A stretch of DNA of 64,000 nucleotides from a virus. The stretch is from the IMG/VR virus record IMGVR_UViG_3300045988_122072, positions 32,001 through 96,000 of that record; one strand, given 5' to 3'. Positions 18,460-64,000 of this stretch are shown piece by piece (position 1 is the stretch's first letter; each line of letters opens with the position of its first letter). Below the pieces are notes generated by a model. It was not told where the DNA came from and searched no databases. It saw nothing but the letters and a program-made list of their open reading frames with translations. The translations under genes and the position numbers were made by a program.

Positions 18460-18470
18460 ACCTGTAGCAA

Positions 18471-19746: not shown

Positions 19747-19822
19747 GGCGGAGCGCAAGAAAGGGGGTGATGCCAAAACAATTATATCCACGCAAATCAT
19801 TAAATTTTAGGAGGTAAATCAA

Positions 19823-41106: not shown

Positions 41107-42686
41107 TGAACAAAACAGATTTTATTAATGGAGTTTTTGAATTGTATGACGAGAGACTTTTAGAATCTAGATTAACAGAAGAAGGTAATGTTTGTGGATG
41201 TCTACTCAAATCATTACCTTTGTATGATGATTGTGGATTATCCTCTAAAGATTTCGTCACAAAATCAGGTCGGCTTTTATTTATAATTGGCAAACAAATT
41301 CGAGATAAAAAATATAGTGAGTTTGATGAAATAAGTTTTATTTCTAATACTAGTGAAGATGTTCGTAATAAAATTAATGATGAGTTTGGCGGGTTTAAGG
41401 CAATTCAAAATGTTATGGATGTTGTATCTATTAAAAACTACGATTCTTTTCTAGATGATTTGAATAAAAGCAATATTATTCTGTCGCTGTATAGGAAAAA
41501 TTTTAATGTTTTAGAAGAAATGACTTTAGATAACGGTAAAAGGGTAGTTCCATTTAATGTGTTTAAAAAACTAACTGCATCTGAGGTTATTGATTTTTAC
41601 GAAGGCACTTTAGCAACGCTTGATACAAAAATTAATTCTTCGAAAATTGTTGAAGAAGGTTATATTAGTTTCGGAGAAGATTTTGTAAACAGGCTAGTGA
41701 ATAAAGAGGAAATGGGTGTTAGTTTCGGATCTGCTGGGTTAGATATTTCTGGAAATGAAATTAGAACGTTCCCATTTATGTCAAACGATATTCTAGGATT
41801 AAAACATGGTACTTTATCATGCTGGTCGGCGCATTCCGGTGCAGGAAAATCAACCTATATGGTAACGGTGTGTATGTCATTAATTTCTCAGGGAGAACGT
41901 GTTACTGTAATTACTAATGAAAGCTCAAAGTCGGATGTAGAGGTACAGTTTTTAATTTGGCTTCTAACAAGATGTCTTGGCTATTGGAAAATTAATAAAA
42001 AGAAACTTGTATCTGGGAATTTAACAGACGAAGACCGTATTAAAATAAAAGAGGCACAGCAATGGTGGAATGAACATTATGCAAAATCTATTAAAGTGAC
42101 AAGTCTAAGTGATGCAGATGCAAGACTTACATGTCAAATTATTAAAAAGGATATTACTCGTGGCGGCTTTTCAACGTTTCTGGTAGATACTTTTAAGCTT
42201 ACTATTGATAATGGAAGCAACGATGCGGCGTGGATGAGTTTGATTAAAGATACAAGAAGTTTAACGGAGATTGCAATGAAATATAATGTTATTGGTCTTA
42301 TGACAGTCCAGCTTGCACTTAGTTCTTTAAATAGATGTTGGATTTCTTCAGACTGTCTCGCGGGGAGTAAAGCTATTAAGGAAACCCTGTCAAACTTGGT
42401 AATGTTCAAAAAAGTAACAGACATGGAACTTGACCCATCTTCTCCAGTTTTTATCCATCCATTTAGACATAAGCAAAAAGAAGATGGAACGTGGTATGAA
42501 GAAGAATTTTTCCCAGATAGGAGTAAAGTATGGAGATTATTTTTTATAGATAAATGTAGACGAGGCGCAGACTCTGGTGATACTGGAATTGCTTATTTGG
42601 TTAGATATGATGGGGACTTTTGTTGTTTTTATGAAACCGCGAAAGCAAGACCTACACATAAACTGATTAATACAGATGGTAGGTAA
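41106..42686 (+). CDS. dnaB: DnaB-like replicative DNA helicase
   Basis: 526 aa with Walker A SAHSGAGKST, Walker B FLVDTF, and RecA-like C-terminal domain organisation. Confidence 0.75.
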   Translation: MNKTDFINGVFELYDERLLESRLTEEGNVCGCLLKSLPLYDDCGLSSKDFVTKSGRLLFIIGKQIRDKKYSEFDEISFISNTSEDVRNKINDEFGGFKAIQNVMDVVSIKNYDSFLDDLNKSNIILSLYRKNFNVLEEMTLDNGKRVVPFNVFKKLTASEVIDFYEGTLATLDTKINSSKIVEEGYISFGEDFVNRLVNKEEMGVSFGSAGLDISGNEIRTFPFMSNDILGLKHGTLSCWSAHSGAGKSTYMVTVCMSLISQGERVTVITNESSKSDVEVQFLIWLLTRCLGYWKINKKKLVSGNLTDEDRIKIKEAQQWWNEHYAKSIKVTSLSDADARLTCQIIKKDITRGGFSTFLVDTFKLTIDNGSNDAAWMSLIKDTRSLTEIAMKYNVIGLMTVQLALSSLNRCWISSDCLAGSKAIKETLSNLVMFKKVTDMELDPSSPVFIHPFRHKQKEDGTWYEEEFFPDRSKVWRLFFIDKCRRGADSGDTGIAYLVRYDGDFCCFYETAKARPTHKLINTDGR

Positions 42687-42761: not shown

Positions 42762-44207
42762 ATGTCTAAGAAGAAAACACATGAAGAATATATATCAGAG
42801 GTACAAAAGAAAAATCCTAATGTAGAAGTAGTAGAGGAGTATCGAGGGAAAAGGGAAAAAATTTTACACAGATGTAAAGTTTGTGGACATCAATGGCCAG
42901 TATATCCAGGAAGTATTCTACAAGGATATGGATGCCCAAAATGTGGTAGAATTAAACAGGCAAACTCTAAGAAAATGTCACACGAAAAATACCTATCTAA
43001 ACTATCTAAACTAAATTCAAACATAGAAGTATTAGAAAAATATAATGGCATGTCTGTGCCTATACGGCATAGATGTAAAGTTTGCGGATATGGTAAGAAT
43101 GGGGAATGGAACCCTAAACCTTGTAATATTTTGCACGGAGATGGCTGCCCAGTGTGCTGTTTTCCCCCTAAAAAAATCGGCCAACCTCCAGAGTATAAAA
43201 ATAGTATATGGGCGAGTGAATATAAAAAATTAGCGGAGTATTATGGTATGGCAGAGGAGCAAATGAAAGAAATTATGCCCATGAGTCATAAAAATATAGA
43301 TATAAAATGCCCAAATTGTGGTAATATTAAATTAATAACTCCAATGCAGTTATTTAAAACAGGACTTAGTTTCTCAAAATGTTCAGACGGAATTAGTTAT
43401 CCTGAAAAATTTATGATATCATTATTAGATCAACTTCATTTTAAATATCAATTACAATATTCTCCTAATTGGGCAGATGATAAAAAATATGATTTTTATA
43501 TTCCAAATTATAATTGTATTGTCGAAACACATGGAGGGCAACATTATAAAGACCAAAAAAGAGGAAGGTCTCTAAAAGAAGAGCAAGAAAATGATCTATT
43601 AAAGGAGAATGTTGCGAGATTAAATGGCATTATAAAATATATTGTTCTTGATTGTAGAGAGTCAGTAGAAGAATGGATTAAAAATAGCATTATGAATAGC
43701 GATATACCAAATTTATTACATTTTACAGACAATGATATTAATTGGAGTAAATGTAATATAGACGCTTTAAGTAGTAAAGTTAAATATGCGGCAGTTTTAT
43801 GGAGCAATGGATTATCAATTGGTAAAATTGCAAAGAATATAAATGTAAATGCATGTACGGTAACAAGGTGGCTTAAAAAAGCGGCTAATTGTGGGATGTG
43901 TGATTATACGCCAGAAAAAAGTAAAAAAAGGCAAGGAGAATTAATGAGAGGAAGGACTGTCTCAGAAGAATCTAAGAGAAAAAATAGTGAATCACATAAA
44001 GGAGTTCAAACTGGTGAAAACGAGACAAAAGCACGCAAGGTAATTCGTTTAGTTGATTTTAAAATTTATGGCTGTCTTAATTATGCAGCACAAAATAACA
44101 ACATAAGCAATGTCACAATGCGAAATCGTTGTAAAGCTCACAAAGATTTTATGTACTACGATGAATGGTTGGCAGAACAAGAGAATTTGAAAGGAGAGGT
44201 ACTATGA
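42762..44207 (+). CDS. free-standing homing endonuclease-like protein
   Basis: Duplicated HRCKVCG...GCP(K/V)CG ribbons. Vsr/PD-(D/E)xK-like YDFYIPNYNCIVETHGGQHY. NUMOD3-like GRTVSEESKRKNSESHKG. Weak SD. Confidence 0.65.
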   Translation: MSKKKTHEEYISEVQKKNPNVEVVEEYRGKREKILHRCKVCGHQWPVYPGSILQGYGCPKCGRIKQANSKKMSHEKYLSKLSKLNSNIEVLEKYNGMSVPIRHRCKVCGYGKNGEWNPKPCNILHGDGCPVCCFPPKKIGQPPEYKNSIWASEYKKLAEYYGMAEEQMKEIMPMSHKNIDIKCPNCGNIKLITPMQLFKTGLSFSKCSDGISYPEKFMISLLDQLHFKYQLQYSPNWADDKKYDFYIPNYNCIVETHGGQHYKDQKRGRSLKEEQENDLLKENVARLNGIIKYIVLDCRESVEEWIKNSIMNSDIPNLLHFTDNDINWSKCNIDALSSKVKYAAVLWSNGLSIGKIAKNINVNACTVTRWLKKAANCGMCDYTPEKSKKRQGELMRGRTVSEESKRKNSESHKGVQTGENETKARKVIRLVDFKIYGCLNYAAQNNNISNVTMRNRCKAHKDFMYYDEWLAEQENLKGEVL

Positions 44208-55980: not shown

Positions 55981-56008
55981 TTGACAAATCCAAAATCTAT
56001 GCTATAAT
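55981..56008 (+). promoter_or_regulatory. sigma-A type promoter (AGACAG subclass), first of a tandem pair
   Basis: ctcTTGACAAATccaaaatctaTGcTATAATacAGACAcAGT. Confidence 0.7.
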
Positions 56009-56060
56009 ACAGACACAGTCAAGGGGCGATTCAAAACTTACACATACTGCGAATTGCCTC

Positions 56061-56088
56061 TTGACAAATTAAAATTTTGTGTTATAAT
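56061..56088 (+). promoter_or_regulatory. sigma-A type promoter, second of a tandem pair
   Basis: ctcTTGACAAATtaaaattttgTGtTATAATcacaatACAAAATTAAtGAAGGAGA. Confidence 0.7.
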
Positions 56089-56120
56089 CACAATACAAAA
56101 TTAATGAAGGAGAATTTAAA

Positions 56121-56315
56121 ATGAAGATGATCCCTGAAAAAGACAGAGACTTTCGGAAGTGTTACTTCTGCGGTGGTTTTCACACCAAAGAAAATCCTGT
56201 GGCTTTTGAACTGGATGTAGATGAGACAACTATTCCAGAGAGTGAAGCAAAGTTTCTTGGCGGTTCAGTTTATTGTTGTAAAAAGTGCTTAGAGAAGGAG
56301 TGGATGGCAACATAA
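56121..56315 (+). CDS. small zinc-ribbon protein (64 aa)
   Basis: CYFCGG...CCKKC; GAAGGAGA SD. Confidence 0.7.
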   Translation: MKMIPEKDRDFRKCYFCGGFHTKENPVAFELDVDETTIPESEAKFLGGSVYCCKKCLEKEWMAT

Positions 56316-56431
56316 TGGAACTTCTGATTTTGGCAGTTATTGCTTTTGTTTTTGGTGGCATCTGGTGCGCTATCTTTGGAAGGAATTGGAGGAAGACAGA
56401 TGACGATTCTGAATCAATACGAGATTCTTAA
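56315..56431 (+). CDS. 38-aa putative membrane peptide
   Basis: TAATG overlap. MELLILAVIAFVFGGIWCAIFG. Overlaps the next gene by 32 nt. Confidence 0.35.
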   Translation: MELLILAVIAFVFGGIWCAIFGRNWRKTDDDSESIRDS

Positions 56432-56741
56432 AAATGTAACCCCAACTTGGTGGATTATTACCCTTATGGCATTGATTGTATTTATTTTTATCATGACTAT
56501 TATTGCAACCGAAAGCACATCAAGGTCTGCACTGGCAGTCTTATCCTTTGCTATTATTTTCACCATTGTATGGGGATGGGTAGTGAGGCCCATTGTGACT
56601 AAAGAGGACATTCCAACAGGTCGTTATCGTTACGAATGCACAATTGATGATGATGCGTCATTCATTGATATTTATGAGAAGTACATTGTAGTTGAGCAGC
56701 GTGGAGATTTGTGGGTTTTGGAGGATAAAGATGACACTTGA
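56400..56741 (+). CDS. two-TM membrane protein, paralogue of 57543-57872
   Basis: MTILNQYEILKNVTPTWWI... ends VEQRGDLWVLEDKDD. GGAGG SD 7 nt upstream. Confidence 0.7.
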   Translation: MTILNQYEILKNVTPTWWIITLMALIVFIFIMTIIATESTSRSALAVLSFAIIFTIVWGWVVRPIVTKEDIPTGRYRYECTIDDDASFIDIYEKYIVVEQRGDLWVLEDKDDT

Positions 56742-56913
56742 TAGCTTATTCCTTTGTCCAAAGTGCCAGAGTAATGACCACGAAGAGATTAGTAAGGAAT
56801 TTTGTGTTGATGACGGCAAGTTTTATGTGAAATGTCTTTGTAGTAATTGTGGATACCTCTATAAATATCGTTTTTGGTTTGACTTTTATTTGAATGAAGA
56901 AGAGGAGAATTGA
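56731..56913 (+). CDS. small zinc-ribbon protein (60 aa)
   Basis: CPKC...CSNCG; GGAGGA SD. Confidence 0.6.
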   Translation: MTLDSLFLCPKCQSNDHEEISKEFCVDDGKFYVKCLCSNCGYLYKYRFWFDFYLNEEEEN

Positions 56914-56914
56914 A

Positions 56915-57349
56915 ATGACTTATACTTTTGGCAGACAGGTTCCCACTGGCTATTATGCGTATCTCAATCGAAAGGGCACTCTCATCATTGGGAGGCAGAC
57001 TTTTGATGGAAGATGTAATATCTTTTCAGGTAGCTATAGCGAAGCGAAAGAGCGTGGTCTTATCAATCGTCTTGCTTTTGATGCTCCACGCATTCATCGA
57101 AATATCGCAGAACATTATGAAGATTGGTCGGAAATTAGTCGTCCGAAGGTTGAAGACAGAGTAGTAAGACACGAAGACTTCTATGAAGGCGACGAAGAAG
57201 CGAATAGAATGGGTTGGCAGGTAATGTCGGTGTCTTCGTATTATGTCAATGATCCGTGGAATAATAAGGAATATGTGGGTTATACAAGACTTCTGCGTCG
57301 TGTTCCGCGCGACATCAATACGGATAAAGTTATTTATGAGGAGGGCTAA
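56915..57349 (+). CDS. hypothetical protein (144 aa)
   Basis: AGAGGAGA SD 6 nt before ATG 56915. Confidence 0.7.
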   Translation: MTYTFGRQVPTGYYAYLNRKGTLIIGRQTFDGRCNIFSGSYSEAKERGLINRLAFDAPRIHRNIAEHYEDWSEISRPKVEDRVVRHEDFYEGDEEANRMGWQVMSVSSYYVNDPWNNKEYVGYTRLLRRVPRDINTDKVIYEEG

Positions 57350-57354
57350 TTATA

Positions 57355-57543
57355 ATGAGTATCAATATTTGGCAACTTGAAATTCTTGATAACGAGACAC
57401 ATGAGAATGTCCACTCGATGTATTTCCTTACTCGCAGAGGTGCTCGTCATTATGGTGCGAAGCGAGAGAAGGAGTGGAAGGAGTACGGCTGGACTTGGAC
57501 TTATGGTGGTGAACCGTTGTATTTCGGGAGGGTTAGAGACTAA
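57355..57543 (+). CDS. hypothetical protein (62 aa)
   Basis: GAGGAGGG SD. Confidence 0.65.
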   Translation: MSINIWQLEILDNETHENVHSMYFLTRRGARHYGAKREKEWKEYGWTWTYGGEPLYFGRVRD

Positions 57544-57872
57544 TGACAATTGTAAATCAGTATCCTATTATGGAGCTTATGACACCTGTTTGGGTAATCC
57601 TTCTTCTTTGTATTGTTACTTGTGTTTTTGCTTTTCTCGCAACAAAGACTCTTATAGAAGAAGATTGGAGAATAGCGAGTGTTCTATTTGGAGTTACTTT
57701 AGTCTTTGGAATAGCTTTATGTCTTGCCGCAAATATAAAACAAGAGGGTAAGCGAAATCGTTATGAATGTCTGATTAATAATACAATATCTTTTGTAGAA
57801 GTGGCTGAAAATTATGATATTGTCGAACAACGCGGAGATCTGTGGATTCTGGAGGATAAAATAGATGAGTAA
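57543..57872 (+). CDS. two-TM membrane protein, paralogue of 56400-56741
   Basis: MTIVNQYPIMELMTPVWVI... ends VEQRGDLWILEDKIDE. Confidence 0.7.
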   Translation: MTIVNQYPIMELMTPVWVILLLCIVTCVFAFLATKTLIEEDWRIASVLFGVTLVFGIALCLAANIKQEGKRNRYECLINNTISFVEVAENYDIVEQRGDLWILEDKIDE

Positions 57873-58107
57873 TGTTCGCTGTGATTTTTATGTACAGATG
57901 TCAAAGGATAGAAAACTCTCTATCAAAGAAGGTATTACTTTGGATGAGCTTGCTTATGTCCTTTCTTCTTTCTTCGAACGCGAAGAAAATTGGCATAAGA
58001 TGAAGGAGTGTTGGCTTGAAAATGGGAAGTCTAAGGACTTTCAGCATTTGATGAAAGAAGCACTGCTTGGGGCTTATGACACTTTCTGTACAGATGAATT
58101 CGGTTGA
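57865..58107 (+). CDS. hypothetical protein (80 aa)
   Basis: GGAGGA SD. Confidence 0.65.
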   Translation: MSNVRCDFYVQMSKDRKLSIKEGITLDELAYVLSSFFEREENWHKMKECWLENGKSKDFQHLMKEALLGAYDTFCTDEFG

Positions 58108-58121
58108 AAGGAGATTTGAAA

Positions 58122-58403
58122 ATGAATATCTATAGGATTTGGGTTGACGAGTGGCTTGGTTATGATACCTATGATAGTGCGATTGTCGTGGCTAAGGACG
58201 AAGAGTCTGCGCGACATATTCATCCGCGAGGCGCTGCGCGTGGGTGGAATGAAAAAACTCGCCGTTATGATAAATTGTGGTATGAGAGTGATGAGCCTCT
58301 TGACAGTTGGGTAATGCCAGAAAGAGTAAATGTTAGACTGGTTGGAACAACAGAGATTTTCCACGAAGGGACGGTTCTGTGCTCGAGCTATAATGCGGGG
58401 TAA
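58122..58403 (+). CDS. hypothetical protein (93 aa)
   Basis: AAAGGAGA SD before ATG 58122. Confidence 0.65.
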   Translation: MNIYRIWVDEWLGYDTYDSAIVVAKDEESARHIHPRGAARGWNEKTRRYDKLWYESDEPLDSWVMPERVNVRLVGTTEIFHEGTVLCSSYNAG

Positions 58404-58409
58404 ACGGGT

Positions 58410-58559
58410 ATGAGATGTGTCGAAGTAAAACTCTGTGAGGGCATCAATGAATTGAGAAGGTTTATTGAGGAAGCTAATAGAAAAAGCTATGAAATTATTG
58501 CTATGACAGAAGTAGTGCGTGGCTATACTTCTTATTATACAATTCTCTATAGGACGTGA
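58410..58559 (+). CDS. hypothetical protein (49 aa)
   Basis: Fills the gap between neighbours, with a weak SD. Below the ORF-track cutoff. Confidence 0.35.
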   Translation: MRCVEVKLCEGINELRRFIEEANRKSYEIIAMTEVVRGYTSYYTILYRT

Positions 58560-58563
58560 TGAA

Positions 58564-58773
58564 ATGAAAATGATTTATTGCCCAAAATGCGGTGCCAAGC
58601 TCTATTCAAATACAGCCGGATATTACTGCACTAATCTTACTTGTCTCCTTCATATTCGTCCTAACGGAATTTGGGATGAAAATCCGTGGTGGTATTATAT
58701 GCCATCAGAAGATTATCATCGCACTTATTATGAAGTGGATGAAAATCCAAAGGAGGTTCGTCAGTGGATGTAG
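58564..58773 (+). CDS. small zinc-ribbon protein (69 aa)
   Basis: MKMIYCPKCGAKL...YYCTNLTC. Confidence 0.6.
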   Translation: MKMIYCPKCGAKLYSNTAGYYCTNLTCLLHIRPNGIWDENPWWYYMPSEDYHRTYYEVDENPKEVRQWM

Positions 58774-58916
58774 AAGAAGTAAAGACTAAGGAAAACCCCG
58801 AAGTGAAAATTGCTGAAGTTGTTGAGGATATTAGTGATACGAGAGAAGATCCGGCAGAGCTTGTGCGTCTAATACATGATCTATTTTATAACGGTGAAGG
58901 GCCATGGTATAGATGA
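58764..58916 (+). CDS. 50-aa acidic peptide with GTG start
   Basis: AAAGGAGG SD 7 nt before GTG 58764. Its stop overlaps the next ATG (ATGA). Confidence 0.4.
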   Translation: MDVEEVKTKENPEVKIAEVVEDISDTREDPAELVRLIHDLFYNGEGPWYR

Positions 58917-59116
58917 TACTGTGCGGAGAAGGTTGTATTCCCTGCTGTGACTTTTGTATTTACTCAATTCGTGATATTTGGGTTGATGAAAATGGCTGGG
59001 AAAATGACCAAGGGCCAAAAGGATGCGCGAAATATAATGATGAAGCGCACCAAGATATAGCATTTGATAATGGTTTTTGTGAAGATTTTCATTGTTTTAG
59101 AGCTAAAAATAATTAA
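58913..59116 (+). CDS. Cys-rich small protein (67 aa)
   Basis: CGEGCIPCCDFC ... CEDFHC. Confidence 0.6.
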   Translation: MILCGEGCIPCCDFCIYSIRDIWVDENGWENDQGPKGCAKYNDEAHQDIAFDNGFCEDFHCFRAKNN

Positions 59117-59124
59117 AATATCTC

Positions 59125-59152
59125 TTGACAAATAAGAAAAACGTGTTATAAT
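59125..59152 (+). promoter_or_regulatory. sigma-A type promoter (AGACAG subclass)
   Basis: ctcTTGACAAATaagaaaaacgTGtTATAATctAGACAGT, with the leader box 21 nt downstream of the -10. Confidence 0.7.
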
Positions 59153-59210
59153 CTAGACAGTAAGAAACACAAAACAAAATTAAAGTAAAATCAAAAAGGA
59201 GAATTGAGTT

Positions 59211-59795
59211 ATGACAAATGTGTTCAATGGTATGTTCGGAAAGATTGCTCCCGGTATGTGCCGACTTTCTATGAGCGGAGGAATCGCTGTTAAGACTTCC
59301 AATGGCTATAAGAGCTATAATGTGAAGAATGGGCGTCTTACAAATTGTGACAGCTTTGTTTTTGACATTGGCGAAGAGTTCTTCTTCGTTATGCCAACCA
59401 ACAAGGTTGAAGTTGGAGACATTATTCTAGTGTCTGGCAAGCCAAAGTGTGTTATTAAGGCTGAGAAGGAGACCATTACGGTTATTAATTATGAGGATTC
59501 TACTGTAGAAACCGTCCTCCCTGAGCGTCATGTATTTATGGGAAGTACTTATTTCTATGGTAAGATCGTATCTATGTTCGGTAACAATTTTATGAAGGGC
59601 AAGAAGGGTGTGGACAAGATGATGTCTTATATGGTCATGTCCGAGATGATGAAGGGTGGTAATGGTTCAAGCAACGGAATGAATTCTATGCTTCCTATGA
59701 TGATGCTTATGAATGGCGGTAATATGTCGGATATGTTTAGCGGAATGTTTAATTTTGATATTGATGCAATCGACGATGAAAGTGAGGCTGAGTAA
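59211..59795 (+). CDS. hypothetical protein with Met/Gly/Asn-rich low-complexity C-terminal region
   Basis: 194 aa with AAAGGAGA SD. C-terminal MMSYMVMSEMMKGGNGSSNGMNSMLPMMMLMNGGNMSDMFSGMF. Confidence 0.75.
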   Translation: MTNVFNGMFGKIAPGMCRLSMSGGIAVKTSNGYKSYNVKNGRLTNCDSFVFDIGEEFFFVMPTNKVEVGDIILVSGKPKCVIKAEKETITVINYEDSTVETVLPERHVFMGSTYFYGKIVSMFGNNFMKGKKGVDKMMSYMVMSEMMKGGNGSSNGMNSMLPMMMLMNGGNMSDMFSGMFNFDIDAIDDESEAE

Positions 59796-59797
59796 TT

Positions 59798-60661
59798 ATG
59801 GGTGGCGGTTCTTGGACGAGAGATAACTTTACTAGCTATGTAACTACTGCAAAGTGTGCAATGGTAGACGATTTTGGTGTTGTCAGAGGACTAAATAGTG
59901 TTCAGGATAATTTTAAATCGAGATGCCTAGTGGCGGAGCTTAATCCTAAAAATGTTGTTCGCGAGTGTGTAGATTCCGCAGAGCATCCCAATACAAAGCC
60001 TGTTATTCTAGCACTCGATGTCACTGGTAGTATGGGCAGTGCAGCCATGGAAGTTGCAAAGCAGATCAATGTTGTTATGACAAGCCTATATGAGAAGATG
60101 ACAGATGTTGAATTTATGATTATGGGCATTGGAGATCTTGCTTATGATAACGCTCCAATTCAGGCATCTCAGTTTGAATCAGATATCAGAATCGCAGAAC
60201 AGCTTGATAAAATTTATTTTGAGGGCGGTGGCGGCGGCAATTCTTATGAGTCCTATACTGCCGCATGGTATTTTGGGCTTAATCATACCAAACTAGATTG
60301 TTGGAATCGTGGGCAGAAGGGTGTTATTATTACAATGGGTGATGAACCTTTGAATCCGTATCTGCCTAAGAATACTCTATCTGTTGCGACTGGTGATAAC
60401 CTACAGGATGATGTTGAGACAGCTCAGCTTTACAAGGATGCTTCTGAGAAGTTTGATATCTACCATTTGTATGTAAAGCATGGGTATGGTCGTTATGAAG
60501 AAGCCGTTAAGGATACTTTCGGCAAGTTTCTTGATACGAATCATCTCAAGACTACATCTGTAAATAAGATTGCAGATGACATTATTGAGATTGTAACAAA
60601 TGCATTTACTGGAAGCGATACAAGTACATTTGTAAATACTAGCGAAGGAATTTCTTGGTAA
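59798..60661 (+). CDS. von Willebrand factor A (vWA) domain protein
   Basis: MIDAS-type ILALDVTGSMGS, followed by alternating beta/alpha-like segments (IITMGDEP). Confidence 0.7.
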   Translation: MGGGSWTRDNFTSYVTTAKCAMVDDFGVVRGLNSVQDNFKSRCLVAELNPKNVVRECVDSAEHPNTKPVILALDVTGSMGSAAMEVAKQINVVMTSLYEKMTDVEFMIMGIGDLAYDNAPIQASQFESDIRIAEQLDKIYFEGGGGGNSYESYTAAWYFGLNHTKLDCWNRGQKGVIITMGDEPLNPYLPKNTLSVATGDNLQDDVETAQLYKDASEKFDIYHLYVKHGYGRYEEAVKDTFGKFLDTNHLKTTSVNKIADDIIEIVTNAFTGSDTSTFVNTSEGISW

Positions 60662-60675
60662 GAGGAGATAAACAC

Positions 60676-61824
60676 ATGTCTAATGTTAAAGTAGTAATCG
60701 GTAGCAATTTTGGGGACGAAGGAAAAGGATTGATGACTGATTATTTCTGCGCAGAAGCAAAAAAGCGGAATGAATCCTGTATTGTTGTTTTATCTAATGG
60801 CGGAGCGCAGAGAGGGCACACTGTGGTTACGCCAGATGGCATTAGACATGTGTTTCATCATTTTGGTTCTGGCACTTTTGCAGAAGCCCCTACATATTTT
60901 AGTGAGCAATATATTTTGAATCCTATGACTTTCAGAAAAGAGCATGAAGAATTGGATTCTTTAGGCTTTAAGCCACTCGTTTGTGCTCATTGGAATTGCA
61001 GATGGTCAACGCCGTATGACGTGATCGTAAATCAAATTCTTGAAGATAGTCGTGGAGAAAATCGACATGGATCTTGCGGCATGGGAATCTGGGAAACTAT
61101 CTGCAGATATACAAGTACTGGAGCACCATCATTGCGGCACTTTAATATGATGAGTGAAGAATATAAAGTTCAATTTCTAAAAAATATTAGAGATAAATAT
61201 ATGCCGCAGAGATTAGCGTCTGCGAATCCAGATGTAGTAAAACAGTGGGAAGAAATTCTATATTCTGATAATCTAATTTATAATTTTATTGCGGACATTC
61301 AGTTCATGTGTTCGCATATGGTTTTTGATTATGGACGCATATTGAGACGATATGACAATGTTGTATTTGAAAATGGGCAAGGTCTGCTACTAGATCAGAA
61401 CCAGACAAGATACGGAGACAATACAACTCCTAGCAATACTGGAATTCAGAACCCGCATGTGATTATTGAAAAGTATTTATTTGGCGCTAACGTTGAAGTG
61501 TGTTATGTTACAAGAACATACCTAACAAGACATGGTGCTGGGGCTTTTGATGGTGAATGTGATAAATCTGAAATCAATGGTTCTATGAAAGATAAGACCA
61601 ATGTGCCAAATCCGTATCAGGGCAGTATTCGATATGGTAAGCTGGATGTTAATGAACTTGTAAACAGAATCAAAAAGGATATTGGGGAGCATTCTTATAA
61701 TGTATCTTTGGCAGTGACACATTTGAACGAGTTTGAAAACAAAGAGTTATTGGCACTAAAGGAACTAAATGTTAAGTATTTGTCTTATAATGAGACTAGA
61801 AAATTAACAGAAAAAATTTCCTGA
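60676..61824 (+). CDS. adenylosuccinate synthetase (PurA)/PurZ-family enzyme, divergent
   Basis: 382 aa. GSNFGDEGKGLMTDY (PurA P-loop GDEGKGK), GGAQRGHT (GGHNAGHT), FENGQGLLLD (FEGAQGTLLD) and TRHGAGAF (TRVGAGPF). The TKLD guanine box is replaced by THLN. Confidence 0.75.
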   Translation: MSNVKVVIGSNFGDEGKGLMTDYFCAEAKKRNESCIVVLSNGGAQRGHTVVTPDGIRHVFHHFGSGTFAEAPTYFSEQYILNPMTFRKEHEELDSLGFKPLVCAHWNCRWSTPYDVIVNQILEDSRGENRHGSCGMGIWETICRYTSTGAPSLRHFNMMSEEYKVQFLKNIRDKYMPQRLASANPDVVKQWEEILYSDNLIYNFIADIQFMCSHMVFDYGRILRRYDNVVFENGQGLLLDQNQTRYGDNTTPSNTGIQNPHVIIEKYLFGANVEVCYVTRTYLTRHGAGAFDGECDKSEINGSMKDKTNVPNPYQGSIRYGKLDVNELVNRIKKDIGEHSYNVSLAVTHLNEFENKELLALKELNVKYLSYNETRKLTEKIS

Positions 61825-61830
61825 AAGTAC

Positions 61831-61858
61831 TTGACAAATAAAAAATATATGATATAAT
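61831..61858 (+). promoter_or_regulatory. sigma-A type promoter (AGACAG subclass)
   Basis: acTTGACAAATaaaaaatataTGaTATAATatGGACAGT, with the leader box at 61881. Confidence 0.7.
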
Positions 61859-61910
61859 ATGGACAGTTGAAAGAAACAAAACAAAATTAATTGAAAAGGA
61901 GCAAGAAAAA

Positions 61911-62240
61911 ATGATTAAGTATTATCACCTGAGCGATGGCACGACGATTGGCGAGCTGCGGGGTACAAAGTATGACTGTATTAACCGGATTGCAAAGGCA
62001 ATGGGTATGACAAAGAGCCTGTGCTTCGATCCTAGTAAGTATCTTATGAATGATGTCTTCAAGGCTGCGTCTAAGCCCTATGGCGGCGACGAGTACGACA
62101 AGGAATATGGCGAACAGGAAGTAAAGCGCAAGGTCATGCGGAAGTATTATAAGCAGCTTGATAGACTGTCTTCTGCGTTCGTAGAGGATCTCAATAAGGC
62201 GATGTTCGAAGCATCTTGGCGGCTTACAAAAAATTCTTAA
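61911..62240 (+). CDS. hypothetical protein (109 aa)
   Basis: AAAGGAG SD. Confidence 0.7.
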   Translation: MIKYYHLSDGTTIGELRGTKYDCINRIAKAMGMTKSLCFDPSKYLMNDVFKAASKPYGGDEYDKEYGEQEVKRKVMRKYYKQLDRLSSAFVEDLNKAMFEASWRLTKNS

Positions 62241-62247
62241 AAACCTC

Positions 62248-62275
62248 TTGACAAATAAAAAATTTATGATATAAT
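62248..62275 (+). promoter_or_regulatory. sigma-A type promoter (AGACAG subclass) driving the structured-RNA array
   Basis: ctcTTGACAAATaaaaaatttaTGaTATAATacAGAtAGT, with the leader box at 62295. No SD or CDS follows for about 540 nt. Confidence 0.7.
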
Positions 62276-62340
62276 ACAGATAGTTCAAGACAATACAAAA
62301 TTAAAGTTCCTGAGCACGAACTGAAAAGGCTCAACTATAT

Positions 62341-62464
62341 GCGATGATAGTCAAATGGTTAAGACGGCAGCGATTATTTTGAAGTGTCTAGCTAGACATG
62401 AACAGCAAGTTTGCAAAATTAATGCTCCAAGCTGCAATTGTGGGTTCGATTCCTACTCATCGCA
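62341..62464 (+). tRNA. tRNA-like gene 1 (Trp-like features) with 59-nt segment in place of the 7-nt anticodon loop
   Basis: Acceptor GCGATGA (62341-47) / TCATCGC (62457-63). D arm TA-GTCA..GAC. Anticodon-stem strands GCAGC (62367-71) / GCTGC (62431-35). T arm GTGGG-TTCGATT-CCTAC (62440-56). The last loop nt read CTCCAA. Confidence 0.55.
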
Positions 62465-62472
62465 ATCATATG

Positions 62473-62590
62473 TCTCCTGTAGCTCAGTCGGGTAGAGCGC
62501 TTAATAACGAGACTTGTAAAAGCCTTAAACAGCAAGTTTCTAACTGGTCTGTTAAACCAGAGGTCACAGGTTCGAGCCCTGTCAGGAGAC
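62473..62590 (+). tRNA. tRNA-Asn(GUU)-like gene 2 with 44-nt insertion between D arm and anticodon arm
   Basis: Acceptor TCTCCTG / CAGGAGA. D arm GCTC-AGTCGGGTA-GAGC. Anticodon arm CTGGT-CTGTTAA-ACCAG (62544-60). Variable AGGTC. T arm ACAGG-TTCGAGC-CCTGT. The insertion at 62500-62543 forms its own 8-bp hairpin. Confidence 0.6.
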
Positions 62591-62596
62591 TTTAAA

Positions 62597-62651
62597 AAGG
62601 CACTAGCAGCAACTTTAAACAATATGCTGGATATTATATTGATGGTGCCTT
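62597..62651 (+). ncRNA. minihelix unit 3 (7-bp closing stem plus CAGCAA box)
   Basis: AAGGCAC (62597-603) / GTGCCTT (62645-51). The box TAGCAGCAACTTT follows the stem directly. Inner stem CAGCA/TGCTG. Confidence 0.4.
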
Positions 62652-62661
62652 GCCTTACATA

Positions 62662-62729
62662 GAGACGCTTACAGCAATTTAAAAAAGATGAAAATGATAT
62701 TTTTACTAATGATTTTATTTTGGCGTCTC
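62662..62729 (+). ncRNA. minihelix unit 4
   Basis: GAGACGC (62662-68) / GCGTCTC (62723-29). The box TTACAGCAATTT follows the stem directly. Confidence 0.4.
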
Positions 62730-62744
62730 GTTGAATAAACTCCA

Positions 62745-62798
62745 AAGACACTAACAGCAAATTTTTAATGTTGGAGATTGTACATAAGAATGTGTCTT
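62745..62798 (+). ncRNA. minihelix unit 5
   Basis: AAGACAC (62745-51) / GTGTCTT (62792-98). The box TAACAGCAAATTT follows the stem directly. Confidence 0.4.
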
Positions 62799-62835
62799 GG
62801 GATTTAGAAATAAATCAAAAATGGAGGAAAGAAAA

Positions 62836-64000
62836 ATGTCTTTTATGAATGCAGTAAAGAATACTCTGAACGAGGATTTCAACTATTCGGTGACTGAGAA
62901 TGGTGCTCTTGGGTATCGTACTTCTGGCAAAGAACTGACTGACCTAAACTTTGCCGTTGCTTCTATGCGCGGTATGAACGAGAAGACCATCTATGATAAG
63001 TTCACGAAGGCTTATTTCGAAGACAAGATGATGGCTTTACGTTGGTTATTTTTCGCAAGAGATGTTCGTGGCGGTCTTGGCGAGAGACGTTTGTTCAGAA
63101 CGGTTCTTAAAAATATGGTAAAGGACGACCCCAATACTGTTAAACGTCTTGCCTGTCTGGTGAGCGAGTATGGCCGTTATGATGACCTGTGGTGTCTGTT
63201 TGGAACGGATGTGGATGGTGTTGTTTTCGATATCATTAAGAAGCAGCTTTCTGATGACATCGCAAATATGGCAGAGAATAAACCCGTATCTCTTCTTGCT
63301 AAGTGGCTCCCTTCCGTAAATGCTTCTTCTACAAGAACTAAGATGAATGCAAGATATATTTGCAAGAATCTTAGTATGACTGAGCGTGAGTATCGTAAGA
63401 CACTTTCTTCTCTTCGTTCTTACATTGATATTGTAGAGAGCAAGATGTCTGCAAAGAAGTGGGAAGACATTAAGTATGAAACGGTTCCTTCTCGTGCAAA
63501 TCTCATTTATAACAGAGCTTTCCTTCGTAATGATGAGGAGCGTCGCAGAGAGTATCTGAGTAAGCTCGAAAATGGTGAAGCTAAGATTAATGCGGGAACT
63601 TTGTTTCCTCACGACATTGTGCATAAGTATTCTAGCACAACTGGATGGGGCTGCCGCGTCAACGAGTACGATGCAACTCTTGAATCTCTTTGGAAGGCTT
63701 TGCCTGACACAGTAAATGGGTGTGGAAACACCATTGTAGTCGCAGACAGTTCTGGCTCTATGTGTTGCAATATTGGTGGAAATACTCATATTGCAGCACT
63801 TGAAGTTGCGAATGCACTTGCAATTTACTTTGCAGAACATTCTTCTGGTGACTTTAAGGATAAGTACATTACTTTCTCTAGCAGACCTCAATTGGTTGAT
63901 TTTAGTCAGTGCAATTCTCTAAGAGATAAGCTTCGTGTTGCATATAGTCATAGTGAGTGTTCAAATACGAACATTGAAAAGGTGTTTGATTTGATTCTTA
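62836..64000 (+). CDS. DUF2828-type protein (helical N-domain plus C-terminal vWA/MIDAS), 3' end outside window
   Basis: Not in the ORF track because there is no stop before the window end. GGAGG SD. TENGALGYRTSG, LAKWLPS, YETVPSRANLIYNRAFLRNDEERRREYL, KINAGTLFPHDIV and MIDAS VVADSSGSM match my memory of the DUF2828/UCP015417 vWA family. Confidence 0.8.
   Translation, partial: MSFMNAVKNTLNEDFNYSVTENGALGYRTSGKELTDLNFAVASMRGMNEKTIYDKFTKAYFEDKMMALRWLFFARDVRGGLGERRLFRTVLKNMVKDDPNTVKRLACLVSEYGRYDDLWCLFGTDVDGVVFDIIKKQLSDDIANMAENKPVSLLAKWLPSVNASSTRTKMNARYICKNLSMTEREYRKTLSSLRSYIDIVESKMSAKKWEDIKYETVPSRANLIYNRAFLRNDEERRREYLSKLENGEAKINAGTLFPHDIVHKYSSTTGWGCRVNEYDATLESLWKALPDTVNGCGNTIVVADSSGSMCCNIGGNTHIAALEVANALAIYFAEHSSGDFKDKYITFSSRPQLVDFSQCNSLRDKLRVAYSHSECSNTNIEKVFDLIL

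What the first reader, a model, noticed from the sequence alone, without database searches (positions are those of the whole stretch)
60676..61824. Divergent PurA-family enzyme lacking the guanine-specificity box: PurZ-like or a new ligase?
The fold-defining PurA motifs are present: GDEGKG at 60712-60729, GGAQRGHT, FENGQGLLLD and TRHGAGAF. However, the (N/T)KxD box that reads guanine in GTP-dependent PurA (TKLD) is THLN here (61717-61728). By my manual alignment, the GATTGRRRR loop that holds IMP and aspartate reads NPYQGSIRYG. The protein is also about 50 aa shorter than bacterial PurA. PurZ enzymes of 2-aminoadenine (Z-genome) phages are exactly such PurA homologues, with ATP/dATP as phosphate donor and dGMP as substrate. 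I see no DatZ-like HD hydrolase or MazZ-like MazG in this window, so either they lie elsewhere or this enzyme makes a different product.
Basis: partly seen in the sequence, partly recalled or inferred. Interest (0 to 1): 0.65.

Follow-up and report, generated by a model that had tools for sequence, protein, structure and literature searches.

The report
vWA-partnered PurA-like ligase, not PurZ
The gene is a real but unusual relative of the purine-synthesis enzyme PurA: it is not the PurZ enzyme of 2-aminoadenine phages, and it belongs to an unstudied branch that in phages and bacteria always sits beside a vWA-domain partner gene and probably joins a purine nucleotide to something other than aspartate.

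Summary
It has the PurA fold (Pfam PF00709, E 1e-29; AF2 pLDDT 85.6).

It is not PurZ:
- It keeps catalytic Asp13 (GDEGKG). All known phage PurZ/PurZ0 have Ser there.
- It scores 27.8 bits against the PurZ model (cut-off 300).
- It groups apart from PurZ and PurA in 100/100 bootstraps.
- No DatZ, MazZ or DpoZ homologue lies in the window or in the 21 kb of a sister contig that I could read.

It is not a housekeeping PurA either. In 92 non-redundant relatives, D13, K16, H41 and Q224 are invariant, but the aspartate loop is rebuilt: V273→H, T301→Q, R303 deleted, R305→L/I. R143 is lost, and TKLD has become T[H/C]x[D/N].

New here: the gene ends a three-gene operon (Met-rich protein, vWA/MIDAS protein, PurA-like) bracketed by two perfect σ70 promoters.
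- The vWA gene lies directly upstream in 83/83 phage loci.
- Searching from the vWA side, a PurA-like gene follows in 78/80 bacterial/MAG loci.
- In most chromosomal bacterial loci (36/53) and in cluster C mycobacteriophages, a J-domain pseudokinase replaces the Met-rich protein.
- An NrtR-like Nudix regulator is often adjacent.

I found no literature on this module. Its function is inferred, not shown.

The parts
59125..59152 (+). Perfect extended -10 sigma70-type promoter (TTGACA-16-TATAAT, TG) upstream of the three-gene unit
   Evidence: 12/12 match. One of only four such sites in 56000-64000. Sequence shown.
59211..59795 (+). Gene 1: 194-aa protein with a beta-rich N-terminal domain, a Met/Gly/Asn-rich low-complexity C-terminal region and an acidic tail. 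It is the variable 'third partner'.
   Evidence: No Pfam or PHROG family. A homologue lies directly upstream of the vWA gene in 76/83 phage loci and in most gut/rumen MAG contigs. Not homologous to the J-domain pseudokinase that replaces it elsewhere (hhalign probability 0.3%).
59798..60661 (+). Gene 2: 287-aa vWA-fold protein with a MIDAS motif (DVTGSMG 60017-60037; GDE 60338-60346), conserved N-terminus MGxGxW (59798-59815), QFESDIRI and GGGGN motifs. It starts 2 nt after gene 1.
   Evidence: phrog_2971, unknown function, E 9e-63; no Pfam hit. AF2 pLDDT 78.8, pTM 0.81. Foldseek PDB top hits are integrin I-domains and the TFIIH Ssl1/p44 and Rpn10 vWA domains, probability 1.0. Invariant columns; N-terminal conservation. 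About 1022 clusters (50% identity) at E<=1e-30 in 1.84 billion proteins.
60676..61824 (+). Gene 3 (the finding): 382-aa PurA-superfamily enzyme of the vWA-linked clade
60712..60729 (+). P-loop GDEGKG, with Asp14 (= E. coli Asp13) and Lys17 (= Lys16) retained
   Evidence: D13 and K16 are present in 92/92 clade members; PurZ has Ser.
60799..60822 (+). GGAQRGHT: catalytic His48 (= His41) retained; Asn38 replaced by Gln
   Evidence: H41 in 92/92; N38→Q in 91/92.
61366..61395 (+). FENGQGLLLD: Gln235 (= Gln224, purine O6 contact) retained
   Evidence: Q224 in 92/92.
61525..61548 (+). TRHGAGAF: His286 in place of E. coli Val273
   Evidence: V273→H in 92/92.
61600..61638 (+). NVPNPYQGSIRYG: rebuilt loop in place of the aspartate loop NEFGATTGRRRRTG
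   Evidence: G298→N 91/92; T300→aromatic or His (F/Y/H/W) 85/92; T301→Q 92/92; R303 deleted 92/92; R304→mostly small or polar residues (T/S 53/92); R305→L/I/F/M 91/92. Only the R306 equivalent is kept.
61717..61728 (+). THLN: homologue of the guanine box TKLD
   Evidence: Clade motif is [ST][HC]x[DN]: TCLD in most bacterial members, THxN in most gut-phage members.
61777..61800 (+). YLSYNETR: probable counterpart of E. coli IISTGPDR (Ser414 region). The ~55-residue insertion that precedes it in bacterial PurA is absent.
   Evidence: Ser at the S414 column in 63/92. The alignment in this region is less certain.
61831..61858 (+). Next perfect sigma70-type promoter, 7 nt after the PurA-like stop codon; marks the end of the unit

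Best explanation
The gene encodes a member of a distinct, monophyletic and so far uncharacterised branch of the PurA (adenylosuccinate synthetase) superfamily. It is neither PurZ nor a housekeeping PurA.

Shown:
- It is the last gene of a three-gene operon driven by a host-type promoter: Met-rich protein, vWA/MIDAS protein, PurA-like enzyme.
- The vWA-PurA-like pair is an essentially obligate unit in large phages of Firmicutes, Vibrio, Rhizobium and Mycobacterium, and in chromosomes of many bacteria.
- A third, interchangeable partner accompanies the pair: either the Met-rich protein or a J-domain (HPD) pseudokinase.
- An NrtR-like Nudix-wHTH gene is often adjacent.
- The residues that in PurA transfer the NTP gamma-phosphate to the purine 6-oxo group are invariant in the clade.
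- The positions that in E. coli PurA recognise L-aspartate, and the Arg143 that binds the IMP 5'-phosphate across the dimer, are all replaced in a clade-specific, conserved way.

Inferred:
- The enzyme still activates a 6-oxopurine nucleotide by phosphorylation.
- It then couples the activated nucleotide to an amine other than free L-aspartate, or binds aspartate in an unprecedented way.
- The vWA protein, together with the J-domain or Met-rich partner, acts as a peptide-binding adaptor or chaperone that presents or receives the second substrate.
- The setting is probably phage-host conflict or nucleotide/ADP-ribose-linked stress, rather than bulk AMP synthesis or DNA base replacement.
For: Fold and family:
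- PF00709, E 1e-29.
- AF2 model with pLDDT 85.6; Foldseek top hits are PurA structures at E 3e-18, with PurZ and PurZ0 at ranks 16-19.

Separate clade:
- NJ tree of 68 clade sequences, 3 PurA and 2 PurZ: clade monophyletic in 100/100 bootstraps.
- All NCBIfam PurA equivalogs fall far below cut-off (81 against 402 bits).

Residue pattern in 92 non-redundant members:
- D13, K16, H41, Q224, G12, G15, G17: 100%.
- N38→Q 99%; T129→C 93%; V273→H 100%; G298→N 99%; T301→Q 100%.
- R303 deleted 100%; R305→hydrophobic 99%; R143 not conserved.

Operon:
- Perfect promoters at 59125 and 61831.
- Intergenic gaps of 2 nt and 14 nt.

Linkage:
- The vWA gene lies immediately upstream on the same strand in 83/83 phage loci.
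- Starting from the vWA protein, 78/80 bacterial/MAG loci have the PurA-like gene immediately downstream. The 2 exceptions are contig ends.
- In cultured phages the two genes hit the same groups: Mycobacterium 201, Rhizobium 10, Vibrio 6.

Partners:
- vWA fold with MIDAS motif.
- J-domain with invariant HPD, fused to a kinase fold lacking the HRD Asp. Found in 36/53 bacterial loci, in Sebata gp260 and in 5 phage contigs that lack the Met-rich gene.
- NrtR-like Nudix+wHTH gene adjacent in 25/53 bacterial and 18/27 gut/rumen phage-like contigs.
- Bacterial flanks are housekeeping genes, not prophage.
- Nudix-HTH regulators as ADPr sensors, and vWA domains as Mg-dependent peptide-binding chaperones in conflict systems, are described in PMC9503650.

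Canonical purA hits in the phage collection are bacterial DNA and have no vWA neighbour.
Against: - No biochemical data exist for any member, so substrate and product are unknown.
- One Arg of the loop (the R306 equivalent) and Asn/Gln residues remain, so aspartate binding in a new geometry cannot be excluded.
- The roles I assign to V273, T300, T301, R303 and R143 in E. coli PurA come from my recollection of the Honzatko/Fromm structural and mutagenesis work.
- Loop alignments at ~20% identity may be off by a residue.
- No vWA-PurA-like fusion protein was seen among the best 150 vWA relatives. A physical complex is therefore inferred from gene linkage only.
- No NrtR-like gene is detectable in this window or in the 80 IMG/VR loci.
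- No defence-system model matches.
Confidence: 0.5

Rival explanations
1. Ordinary adenylosuccinate synthetase carried as an auxiliary metabolic gene. It makes adenylosuccinate from IMP, aspartate and GTP to boost AMP/ATP supply (with host PurB) during infection, perhaps insensitive to host regulation.
For: - PF00709 match, PurA fold and invariant catalytic residues.
- Half the clade keeps the guanine-specific Asp of the TKLD box.
- Databases annotate it as adenylosuccinate synthetase.
Against: - Every NCBIfam PurA equivalog scores far below cut-off.
- The aspartate loop and R143 are replaced in 100% of members.
- The gene is obligately linked to a vWA protein and a J-domain pseudokinase or Met-rich protein, which a metabolic PurA does not need.
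- Free-living bacteria carry the module as a separate operon in variable chromosomal contexts; I did not check that these genomes also hold a canonical purA.
Confidence: 0.2
2. PurZ-like enzyme. It condenses dGMP and aspartate using ATP/dATP to start dZTP synthesis for a 2-aminoadenine genome.
For: - It is a PurA homologue shorter than bacterial PurA with a degenerate guanine box.
- It falls in PHROG 1211, whose label is the PurZ name.
Against: - Asp13 is retained, whereas 100% of phage PurZ/PurZ0 have Ser.
- The PurZ model gives 27.8 bits against 300.
- Only 9-11 bits to PurZ proteins.
- The clade is separate from PurZ in 100/100 bootstraps.
- No DatZ/MazZ/DpoZ in the window or sister contig; the polymerase is PolIII-alpha type.
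- DatZ is absent from the phage groups that carry this gene.
- Homologues also sit in bacterial chromosomes.
Confidence: 0.02
3. A non-metabolic NTPase: a SIMIBI-class nucleotide switch or chaperone that works with the vWA protein in the way MoxR AAA+ ATPases work with vWA partners, remodelling or loading a target protein without making a purine adduct.
For: - vWA proteins typically pair with an NTPase chaperone.
- The J-domain partner points to Hsp70-linked protein handling.
- The next-best structural neighbours after PurA are the SRP GTPases Ffh/FtsY.
- The IMP 5'-phosphate contacts (N38, T129, R143) are altered.
Against: D13, H41 and Q224 serve purine activation rather than NTP hydrolysis as such, yet they are invariant across about 60% sequence divergence. 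This argues that chemistry on a 6-oxopurine-like acceptor is maintained.
Confidence: 0.12
4. An enzyme of NAD+/ADP-ribose-linked metabolism. It acts on a purine moiety inside a larger molecule (a hypoxanthine-containing dinucleotide or an ADPr-derived compound), induced by ADPr through the NrtR-like regulator, and helps restore or detoxify nucleotide pools after NAD+-depleting immunity.
For: - An NrtR-like Nudix-wHTH gene is adjacent in 43 of 80 vWA-seeded loci. NrtR-type factors sense ADPr (PMC9503650).
- A NADAR gene lies two genes upstream in Vibrio phage pv27.
- NMNAT/Nudix and PRTase genes are nearby in the Rhizobium phages.
- Loss of the dianion-binding R143 would suit an esterified 5'-phosphate.
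Against: - The association is contextual only.
- No NAD-related gene lies near the module in this window or in the 80 IMG/VR loci.
- Nothing explains the vWA and J-domain partners.
- The known NARP1-3 pathways use unrelated enzymes.
Confidence: 0.1

Closest known systems
Canonical adenylosuccinate synthetase PurA (e.g. E. coli, PDB 1ADE/1CG0 series)
   Same: - Same fold (Foldseek E 3e-18 to 1e-15, TM about 0.65-0.68).
- Same P-loop GDEGKG, and the catalytic Asp13/Lys16/His41/Gln224.
- Closest relative by sequence (57 bits, E 1e-14).
   Different: - 50 aa shorter and lacks the C-terminal insertion.
- Aspartate loop rebuilt: V273H, T300→aromatic, T301Q, R303 deleted, R305→hydrophobic.
- R143 lost; N38Q; T129C; Lys331→His/Cys.
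- Far below every PurA equivalog cut-off.
- Always encoded with a vWA partner.
PurZ / PurZ0 (succino-amino-deoxyadenylate synthase of Z-genome phages; PDB 6FM1, 7ODX, 7VF6)
   Same: - Phage-encoded PurA homologue of reduced size.
- Altered NTP-base recognition.
- Shares PHROG 1211 and the RefSeq label derived from it.
   Different: - Asp, not Ser, at the diagnostic position.
- 14-15% identity in structural alignments.
- Separate clade.
- No DatZ/MazZ/DUF550/DutZ/DpoZ companions.
- Also occurs in bacterial chromosomes.
vWA 'peptide-binding chaperone' partners of enzymes in conflict systems regulated by Nudix-HTH (NrtR-like) factors (Iyer et al. 2022, PMC9503650), and vWA-MoxR or TerY-kinase-phosphatase modules
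   Same: An enzyme gene tightly coupled to a MIDAS-type vWA protein, with a kinase-fold protein and a Nudix-wHTH one-component regulator in the neighbourhood.
   Different: - The enzyme here is a PurA-family ligase, not an ADP-ribosylglycohydrolase, AAA+ ATPase or phosphatase.
- The kinase-fold protein is a pseudokinase fused to a J-domain.
- That paper does not mention PurA.
Base-amination enzymes that phosphorylate a ring oxo group and displace it with an amine (PurA itself; TiaS agmatidine synthetase; CTP synthase). This comparison is from memory and is a lead, not a test.
   Same: The chemistry I infer is the same: NTP-dependent O-phosphorylation of a nucleobase carbonyl followed by attack of an amine.
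   Different: TiaS and CTP synthase are not homologous to PurA. The acceptor and the amine are unknown here.

Membership tests
PurZ/PurZ0 | [quoted passage not shown] | tested here: not met
   The window has GDEGKG. Asp is present in 92/92 clade members, while the phiVC8 and S-2L PurZ have Ser. The rule is stated in PMC12884076 and in bioRxiv 2025.10.22.683976.
PurZ/PurZ0 | Sequence membership: reaches the NCBIfam PurZ model cut-off and clusters with PurZ and archaeal PurA | tested here: not met
   NF038379 gives 27.8 bits against cut-off 300, over residues 4-92 only. No PurZ chain at E<=1 in the PDB sequence search. 9-11 bits by phmmer. Clade separate in 100/100 NJ bootstraps (only 2 PurZ, and no archaeal PurA or PurZ0, in the tree).
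PurZ/PurZ0 | Genomic companions that clear dATP and supply dGMP (DatZ, MazZ/DUF550, or DutZ/DmtZ) and a Z-selective DpoZ | tested here: not met
   None in the 64-kb window nor in 21 kb of a 99%-identical sister contig. The polymerase is PolIII-alpha type. DatZ tblastn hits none of the Mycobacterium or Rhizobium phage groups carrying the gene. The remaining ~100 kb of this phage genome could not be read.
PurZ/PurZ0 | 2-aminoadenine replaces adenine in virion DNA | not testable with these tools
   Needs LC-MS or restriction analysis of virion DNA.
Canonical PurA (adenylosuccinate synthetase, EC 6.3.4.4) | Fold and Pfam PF00709 match above the gathering score | tested here: met
   103.6 bits against 27, but only profile positions 1-287 of 416. 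PurA fold by AF2 and Foldseek.
Canonical PurA (adenylosuccinate synthetase, EC 6.3.4.4) | Reaches an equivalog-level model cut-off (TIGR00184, NF002223 and others) | tested here: not met
   81.4 against 402 bits; 72.7 against 395.6; the others are lower.
Canonical PurA (adenylosuccinate synthetase, EC 6.3.4.4) | Catalytic Asp13, Lys16, His41, Gln224 | tested here: met
   All four are present in the window protein and in 92/92 clade members.
Canonical PurA (adenylosuccinate synthetase, EC 6.3.4.4) | L-aspartate recognition elements (Val273, Thr300, Thr301, Arg303, Arg305; loop GATTGRRRR) | tested here: not met
   His, aromatic, Gln, deletion and Leu/Ile respectively; each change is conserved across the clade. 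The functional assignment of these E. coli residues is from established literature as I recall it.
Canonical PurA (adenylosuccinate synthetase, EC 6.3.4.4) | Guanine recognition: (N/T)KxD box and Ser414 | tested here: inconclusive
   The window has THLN. Clade motif is [ST][HC]x[DN], with D 53% and N 46%; Lys331 is never kept; Ser at the 414 column in 68%. From memory, the E. coli D333N mutant switches from GTP to XTP, so the donor cannot be read from sequence.
Canonical PurA (adenylosuccinate synthetase, EC 6.3.4.4) | Arg143 from the partner subunit binding the IMP 5'-phosphate (homodimer active site) | tested here: not met
   The column is G/P/T/S/E in the clade. The alignment is approximate in this helix.
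vWA (von Willebrand A) domain, MIDAS type (partner gene 59798-60661) | Rossmann-like vWA fold with a DxSxS...T...D metal-ion-dependent adhesion site | tested here: met
   Foldseek probability 1.0 to integrin I-domains and to Ssl1 and Rpn10 vWA domains. D74-x-T76-x-S78 and G181-D182-E183 are invariant. No Pfam vWA model reaches threshold.
Known anti-phage defence systems (PADLOC-DB v2) | Match of any module protein to a defence-system model | tested here: not met
   No hit for the PurA-like, vWA, Met-rich or J-domain proteins. Only the generic kinase domain of Sebata gp260 hits kinase-containing models.

The most novel reading that the evidence does not exclude
The PurA-like enzyme may be a protein-directed ligase. 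After phosphorylating the 6-oxo group of IMP or GMP (or a deoxy form), it would accept a peptide amine in place of aspartate. The amine could be the invariant N-terminal Gly of its vWA partner (MGxGxW, exposed after Met removal) or a lysine of a target protein held by the vWA MIDAS site and the J-domain or Met-rich adaptor. The result would be a C6-N-linked 'purinylated' protein. That would be a new kind of protein nucleotidylation, used by large phages early in infection and by bacteria under an ADPr-sensing regulator.

The evidence does not exclude this:
- The carboxylate-binding arginines of the aspartate site are gone.
- The partners are peptide-binding modules.
- The extreme N-terminus of the vWA protein is conserved from mycobacteriophages to Acidobacteria.
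Probability: 0.1. Interest if true: 0.9.

Novelty: new variant of a known kind. Interest (0 to 1): 0.6.

Why it matters
- Annotation. More than 200 cultured phages and hundreds of metagenomic phages carry this gene. RefSeq records copy the PHROG 1211 label ('2-aminooxy adenylosuccinate synthetase', the PurZ name). Read literally, that label would predict Z-DNA in cluster C mycobacteriophages and in Rhizobium and Vibrio phages. The Asp13 test shows the prediction is wrong.
- Biology. PurA is a textbook single-function enzyme, and PurZ showed that one active-site change can rewrite a genome's chemistry. This is a third branch. Its catalytic core is frozen, its second-substrate pocket is new, and it has obligate protein partners (vWA, plus a J-domain pseudokinase or a Met-rich protein). 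It is spread across phages and at least six bacterial phyla.
- Testability. The gene set is small and well defined, and the mycobacteriophage and Vibrio phage hosts are tractable. It could reveal a new nucleotide derivative or protein modification in phage-host conflict.

Tried and rejected
- Megablast of 19 kb of the window against cultured phages: no match, so there is no close cultured relative.
- PADLOC defence models: nothing for the module.
- Nine literature searches (PurA-like, vWA, J domain, NrtR, anti-phage, counter-defence, mycobacteriophage): no paper treats this clade or module. NARP3 is PnuC plus NadR and is unrelated. The mycobacteriophage structural re-annotation paper does not mention the gene.
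- A Band_7/SPFH gene sits next to the operon in the 99%-identical sister contigs. I rejected it as a fourth component: its position varies, it occurs in only 22 loci, and it is absent from the window.
- Homology between the Met-rich protein and the J-domain pseudokinase: none (hhalign probability 0.3%).
- A relationship between the vWA partner and the vWA-like part of the neighbouring DUF2828/DUF7788 protein: only the MIDAS motif aligns.
- Rosetta-stone fusions: none with PurA-like among the best 150 vWA relatives. The one long member (P0290) is a vWA-U-box fusion on a 2.5-kb contig, and no PurA-like gene follows it.
- NAD-related neighbours (NADAR, NMNAT/Nudix, PRTase) in the 80 IMG/VR loci and the window: essentially absent.
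- Weak 'phage' purA hits (Acinetobacter, Enterococcus, Listeria, E. coli records): these are bacterial chromosomal DNA with canonical purA.
- ARAGORN found no tRNA in the window, although Rfam did.
Full report
**1. What is there.** The finding is a real gene: 60676..61824 on the + strand, 382 aa, with an ATG preceded by AGGAG. The protein matches Pfam Adenylsucc_synt (PF00709) at E 1.3e-29. The match stops at profile position 287 of 416, so the C-terminal third is divergent. An AlphaFold2 model (pLDDT 85.6, pTM 0.88) has the PurA fold. The best Foldseek hits are bacterial and eukaryotic PurA structures (E 3e-18 to 1e-15, TM about 0.65-0.68, 19-24% identity). PurZ of S-2L (7ODX) ranks 16, PurZ0 (7VF6) ranks 19 and archaeal PurA ranks 25, each at 14-17% identity. 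The window is part of a large virulent-type phage genome. It carries a terminase, exonucleases, a DnaB-like helicase, a RecJ-like nuclease and a PolIII-alpha-type DNA polymerase. Near-identical contigs of 162-166 kb come from gut metagenomes. No cultured phage is similar at the DNA level.

**2. It is not PurZ.** Two papers give the defining active-site feature of PurZ/PurZ0: Ser replaces the catalytic Asp13 of PurA (S14 in phiVC8). This holds in 100% of 147 phage PurZ/PurZ0 sequences, and mutating the Ser back to Asp abolishes substrate selectivity (PMC12884076; bioRxiv 2025.10.22.683976).
- The window protein has GDEGKG. Asp is present in 92 of 92 non-redundant relatives, whereas the phiVC8 and S-2L PurZ sequences I aligned have GSTGKG.
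- The NCBIfam PurZ model scores 27.8 bits against a cut-off of 300.
- phmmer gives 54 bits to E. coli PurA but only 11 and 9 bits to the two PurZ proteins.
- No PurZ chain appears in a PDB sequence search at E<=1.
- No homologue of DatZ, MazZ or DpoZ is detectable in the window, and none is annotated in 21 kb of a 99%-identical sister contig.
- DatZ homologues in the phage collection belong to phiVC8-like and other small phages. They do not occur in the 201 mycobacteriophage or 10 Rhizobium phage records that carry this gene.

The PHROG that holds the protein (phrog_1211, E 4e-65) carries the PurZ-derived label '2-aminooxy adenylosuccinate synthetase'. RefSeq has copied that label onto cluster C mycobacteriophage, Rhizobium phage and Vibrio phage genes. 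It is an over-annotation.

**3. It is not a housekeeping PurA either.** All NCBIfam PurA equivalogs fall far below their cut-offs (best 81 against 402 bits). I collected the homologues from 83 phage loci and 78 bacterial/MAG loci, reduced them to 92 sequences below 80% identity, and aligned them with E. coli PurA.
- Retained: the residues that carry out phosphoryl transfer and purine activation are invariant (G12, D13, G15, K16, G17, H41 and Q224 at 100%).
- Replaced, in a clade-specific and conserved way:
  - N38→Q (99%) and T129→C (93%).
  - V273→H (100%) and G298→N (99%).
  - T300→aromatic or His (85/92) and T301→Q (100%).
  - R303 deleted (100%), R304→mostly small or polar residues, R305→L/I/F/M (99%).
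  - R143 is not conserved.
  - Lys331 of the TKLD box becomes His or Cys in all but two of the 92.
- The Asp of the TKLD box survives in 53% of members (TCLD in most bacterial members) and is Asn in 46% (THxN in the gut-phage subclade, including this gene).

As I recall the E. coli literature, V273, T300, T301 and R303 are the determinants of L-aspartate recognition, and R143 reaches across the dimer to the IMP 5'-phosphate. The only support for this inside the session is that R143L, R303L and K16Q mutant structures exist (1CG3, 1CG4, 1CG1). A neighbour-joining tree (68 clade members, 3 canonical PurA, 2 PurZ, 378 columns) recovers the clade in 100/100 bootstraps. The outgroup sample is small. 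PMC12884076 found 481 PF00709 homologues in viruses. Only 151 sequences in its tree fell in the PurZ group and 251 in the PurA group, which leaves several hundred undiscussed. This clade is presumably among them.

**4. The gene is one part of a conserved module.** Four perfect extended -10 σ70-type promoters (12/12 match, with TG) occur in 56-64 kb. Two of them bracket exactly three genes, which are separated by 2 nt and 14 nt:

| Feature | Coordinates |
|---|---|
| Promoter | 59125-59152 |
| Gene 1, Met-rich protein (194 aa) | 59211-59795 |
| Gene 2, vWA protein (287 aa) | 59798-60661 |
| Gene 3, PurA-like (382 aa) | 60676-61824 |
| Next promoter | 61831-61858 |

- **Gene 2.** It has no Pfam family and belongs to phrog_2971, 'unknown function'. 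Its AF2 model (pLDDT 78.8) is a vWA domain: Foldseek gives probability 1.0 to integrin I-domains and to the TFIIH Ssl1/p44 and Rpn10 vWA domains. It has an invariant MIDAS motif (D74-x-T76-x-S78, G181-D182-E183) and a conserved N-terminus MGxGxW....Y.
- **Gene 1.** It has a beta-rich N-terminal domain and a Met/Gly/Asn-rich tail, and no family assignment.

**5. Linkage is essentially obligate.**
- The homologous vWA gene lies immediately upstream of the PurA-like gene in Rhizobium phage RHph_TM2_3B, Vibrio phage pv27 and mycobacteriophage Sebata.
- The same holds in all 80 IMG/VR loci retrieved with the PurA-like profile: 83/83 in total, on the same strand, with gaps mostly between -19 and +21 nt.
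- In the converse search, 80 loci in GTDB species genomes were retrieved with the vWA profile. Of these, 78 have a PurA-like gene immediately downstream, and the two exceptions end at a contig edge.
- In the cultured-phage collection the two proteins hit the same groups in the same numbers: Mycobacterium 201, Rhizobium 10, Vibrio 6.
- The weak extra purA hits (Acinetobacter, Enterococcus, Listeria and others) are bacterial chromosomal DNA with canonical purA and no vWA neighbour.
- The vWA family comprises about 1000 clusters at 50% identity with E<=1e-30 among 1.84 billion representatives.

**6. A third, interchangeable partner and a frequent regulator.**
- The Met-rich gene precedes the vWA gene in 76/83 phage loci.
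- In 36/53 bacterial chromosomal loci, in the 5 phage contigs that lack the Met-rich gene, and in mycobacteriophages (Sebata gp260, annotated Ser/Thr kinase), that position is held by a ~357-aa protein. It has an N-terminal J-domain with invariant HPD and a kinase fold. The fold lacks the HRD catalytic Asp, and in the bacterial members also the DFG Asp, so it is a pseudokinase. The two alternatives are not homologous.
- An NrtR-like Nudix plus winged-helix gene adjoins the module in 25/53 bacterial loci. There it is usually divergent and its Nudix box is degenerate.
- The same kind of gene adjoins the module in 18/27 gut/rumen phage-like contigs. There it is on the same strand and some copies have an intact Nudix box.
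- Bacterial flanks are ordinary housekeeping genes of many kinds, not prophage genes.
- Hosts span Acidobacteria, Melainabacteria, Alpha-, Beta- and Gammaproteobacteria, Clostridia and Bdellovibrionales.
- No module protein matches a PADLOC model.
- Nine literature searches found no paper on the module.
- The nearest described logic comes from Iyer et al. 2022: Nudix-HTH factors as ADPr sensors, and vWA domains as Mg-dependent peptide-binding chaperones, in conflict systems built around other enzymes.

**7. How it most likely works.** The shown facts are those of sections 1-6: family and fold, catalytic residues kept, the aspartate and R143 positions replaced, the operon, the obligate vWA partner, the alternative J-domain or Met-rich partner, and the presence of the module in both phages and bacteria. 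What follows is inference.
- The enzyme still phosphorylates the 6-oxo group of a purine nucleotide with an NTP.
- The donor cannot be read from sequence. It was probably GTP ancestrally, given TCLD. The Asn variant here may relax or change that preference.
- The amine that displaces the phosphate is probably not free L-aspartate.
- The vWA protein and the third partner probably deliver or receive the second substrate, or tether the enzyme to a target. Both are peptide-binding types of module, and one of them is wired to Hsp70.

I put about 0.5 on this overall picture. The rivals are:

| Rival | Confidence |
|---|---|
| Plain metabolic PurA | 0.2 |
| Non-catalytic NTPase chaperone | about 0.12 |
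| Enzyme of NAD/ADPr-linked metabolism | about 0.1 |
| PurZ | 0.02 |

The most novel reading not excluded is that the amine is a protein amine (the conserved Gly2 of the vWA partner or a target lysine), which would give a C6-N-linked protein-nucleotide adduct (about 0.1).

**8. Verdict.** The PurZ interpretation is refuted on its defining features. The alternative, 'a new ligase with a different product', is supported as the best current reading but remains unproven. The extra result from this stage is the conserved module: vWA plus PurA-like, with a J-domain pseudokinase or a Met-rich protein, and often an NrtR-like gene. That makes this a new variant of a known enzyme kind, with moderate to high interest and a clear experimental path.

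Noticed in passing
window 62341-62464 and 62473-62590 (+); ORF from 62836 to beyond 64000 (+): Two tRNA-like RNAs of 124 and 118 nt (Rfam tRNA, 48.7 and 42.6 bits). They have a normal acceptor stem, D-arm and T-arm, but a 57-59-nt insertion where the anticodon loop should be. ARAGORN calls no tRNA in the window. A weak YrlA (Y RNA-like) hit (26 bits, E 0.0025) spans the junction. The insertions share AACAGCAAGTTT. Immediately downstream is a DUF2828+DUF7788 (TROVE/Ro60-like) gene. Together these look like a phage-encoded Ro-like protein with Y-RNA-like partners.
   Followed up: partly
P0123 (595 aa), mycobacteriophage homologue of window 59798-60661: The vWA partner of some cluster C mycobacteriophages carries a ~250-aa intein-like insertion (weak Hint/Intein_splicing hits; Cys after the insertion). 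It lies just before the invariant GDE MIDAS motif. Inteins usually sit in functionally critical sites.
   Followed up: partly
L171 258-1487 (protein P0290, 409 aa): One member of the vWA-partner family is fused to a C-terminal U-box (E3 ligase-type) domain (Pfam E 2.7e-14). It sits on a 2.5-kb, 34% GC contig and is followed by a helical protein, not a PurA-like gene. This is the only exception to the pairing that I saw.
   Followed up: partly
RefSeq/GenBank phage records listed (e.g. NC_041993, NC_070967, OR413349): The PurZ-derived product name '2-aminooxy adenylosuccinate synthetase' (from PHROG 1211) has been applied to more than 200 phage genes that keep Asp13 and lack DatZ. The label wrongly implies Z-genomes.
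   Followed up: yes
window 56061-56088, 59125-59152, 61831-61858, 62248-62275 (+): Four perfect TTGACA-16-TATAAT promoters with a TG extension and similar flanks (CTTGACAAATAA.AAA). They divide this region into short transcription units, which looks like a set of host-RNA-polymerase early promoters.
   Followed up: partly
L167/L168 8388-9305 (sister contigs); absent from window 58100-59120: The 99%-related contigs carry a Band_7/SPFH membrane protein gene just upstream of the operon, where the window has four small ORFs instead. This is a local replacement between near-identical phages.
   Followed up: partly
window 1-20000 versus 20000-64000: Genes run on the - strand up to about 19.8 kb (terminase, exonuclease, a 948-aa protein) and on the + strand afterwards. 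GC skew changes sign at 16-20 kb, and GC is higher (0.41-0.43) at 16-24 kb than elsewhere (about 0.33-0.35).
   Followed up: no
window 42762-44207 (+): A 481-aa HNH/homing-endonuclease-like ORF lies directly after the DnaB-like helicase gene (41106-42686). In sister contig L168 a NUMOD3-containing ORF sits before the polymerase gene. Mobile endonucleases appear to populate the replication module.
   Followed up: no
CAKLQF020000006.1 (L169) and OR846603.1 (L170) in the phage collection: Records named as phages ('Acinetobacter phage MD-2021a', 'Enterococcus phage Efs 1-1-1'). The first clearly holds bacterial chromosomal DNA (alaS, epd, hisZ, purA); the second is flagged UNVERIFIED_ORG and holds a canonical purA. 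Their purA hits are not phage genes.
   Followed up: yes
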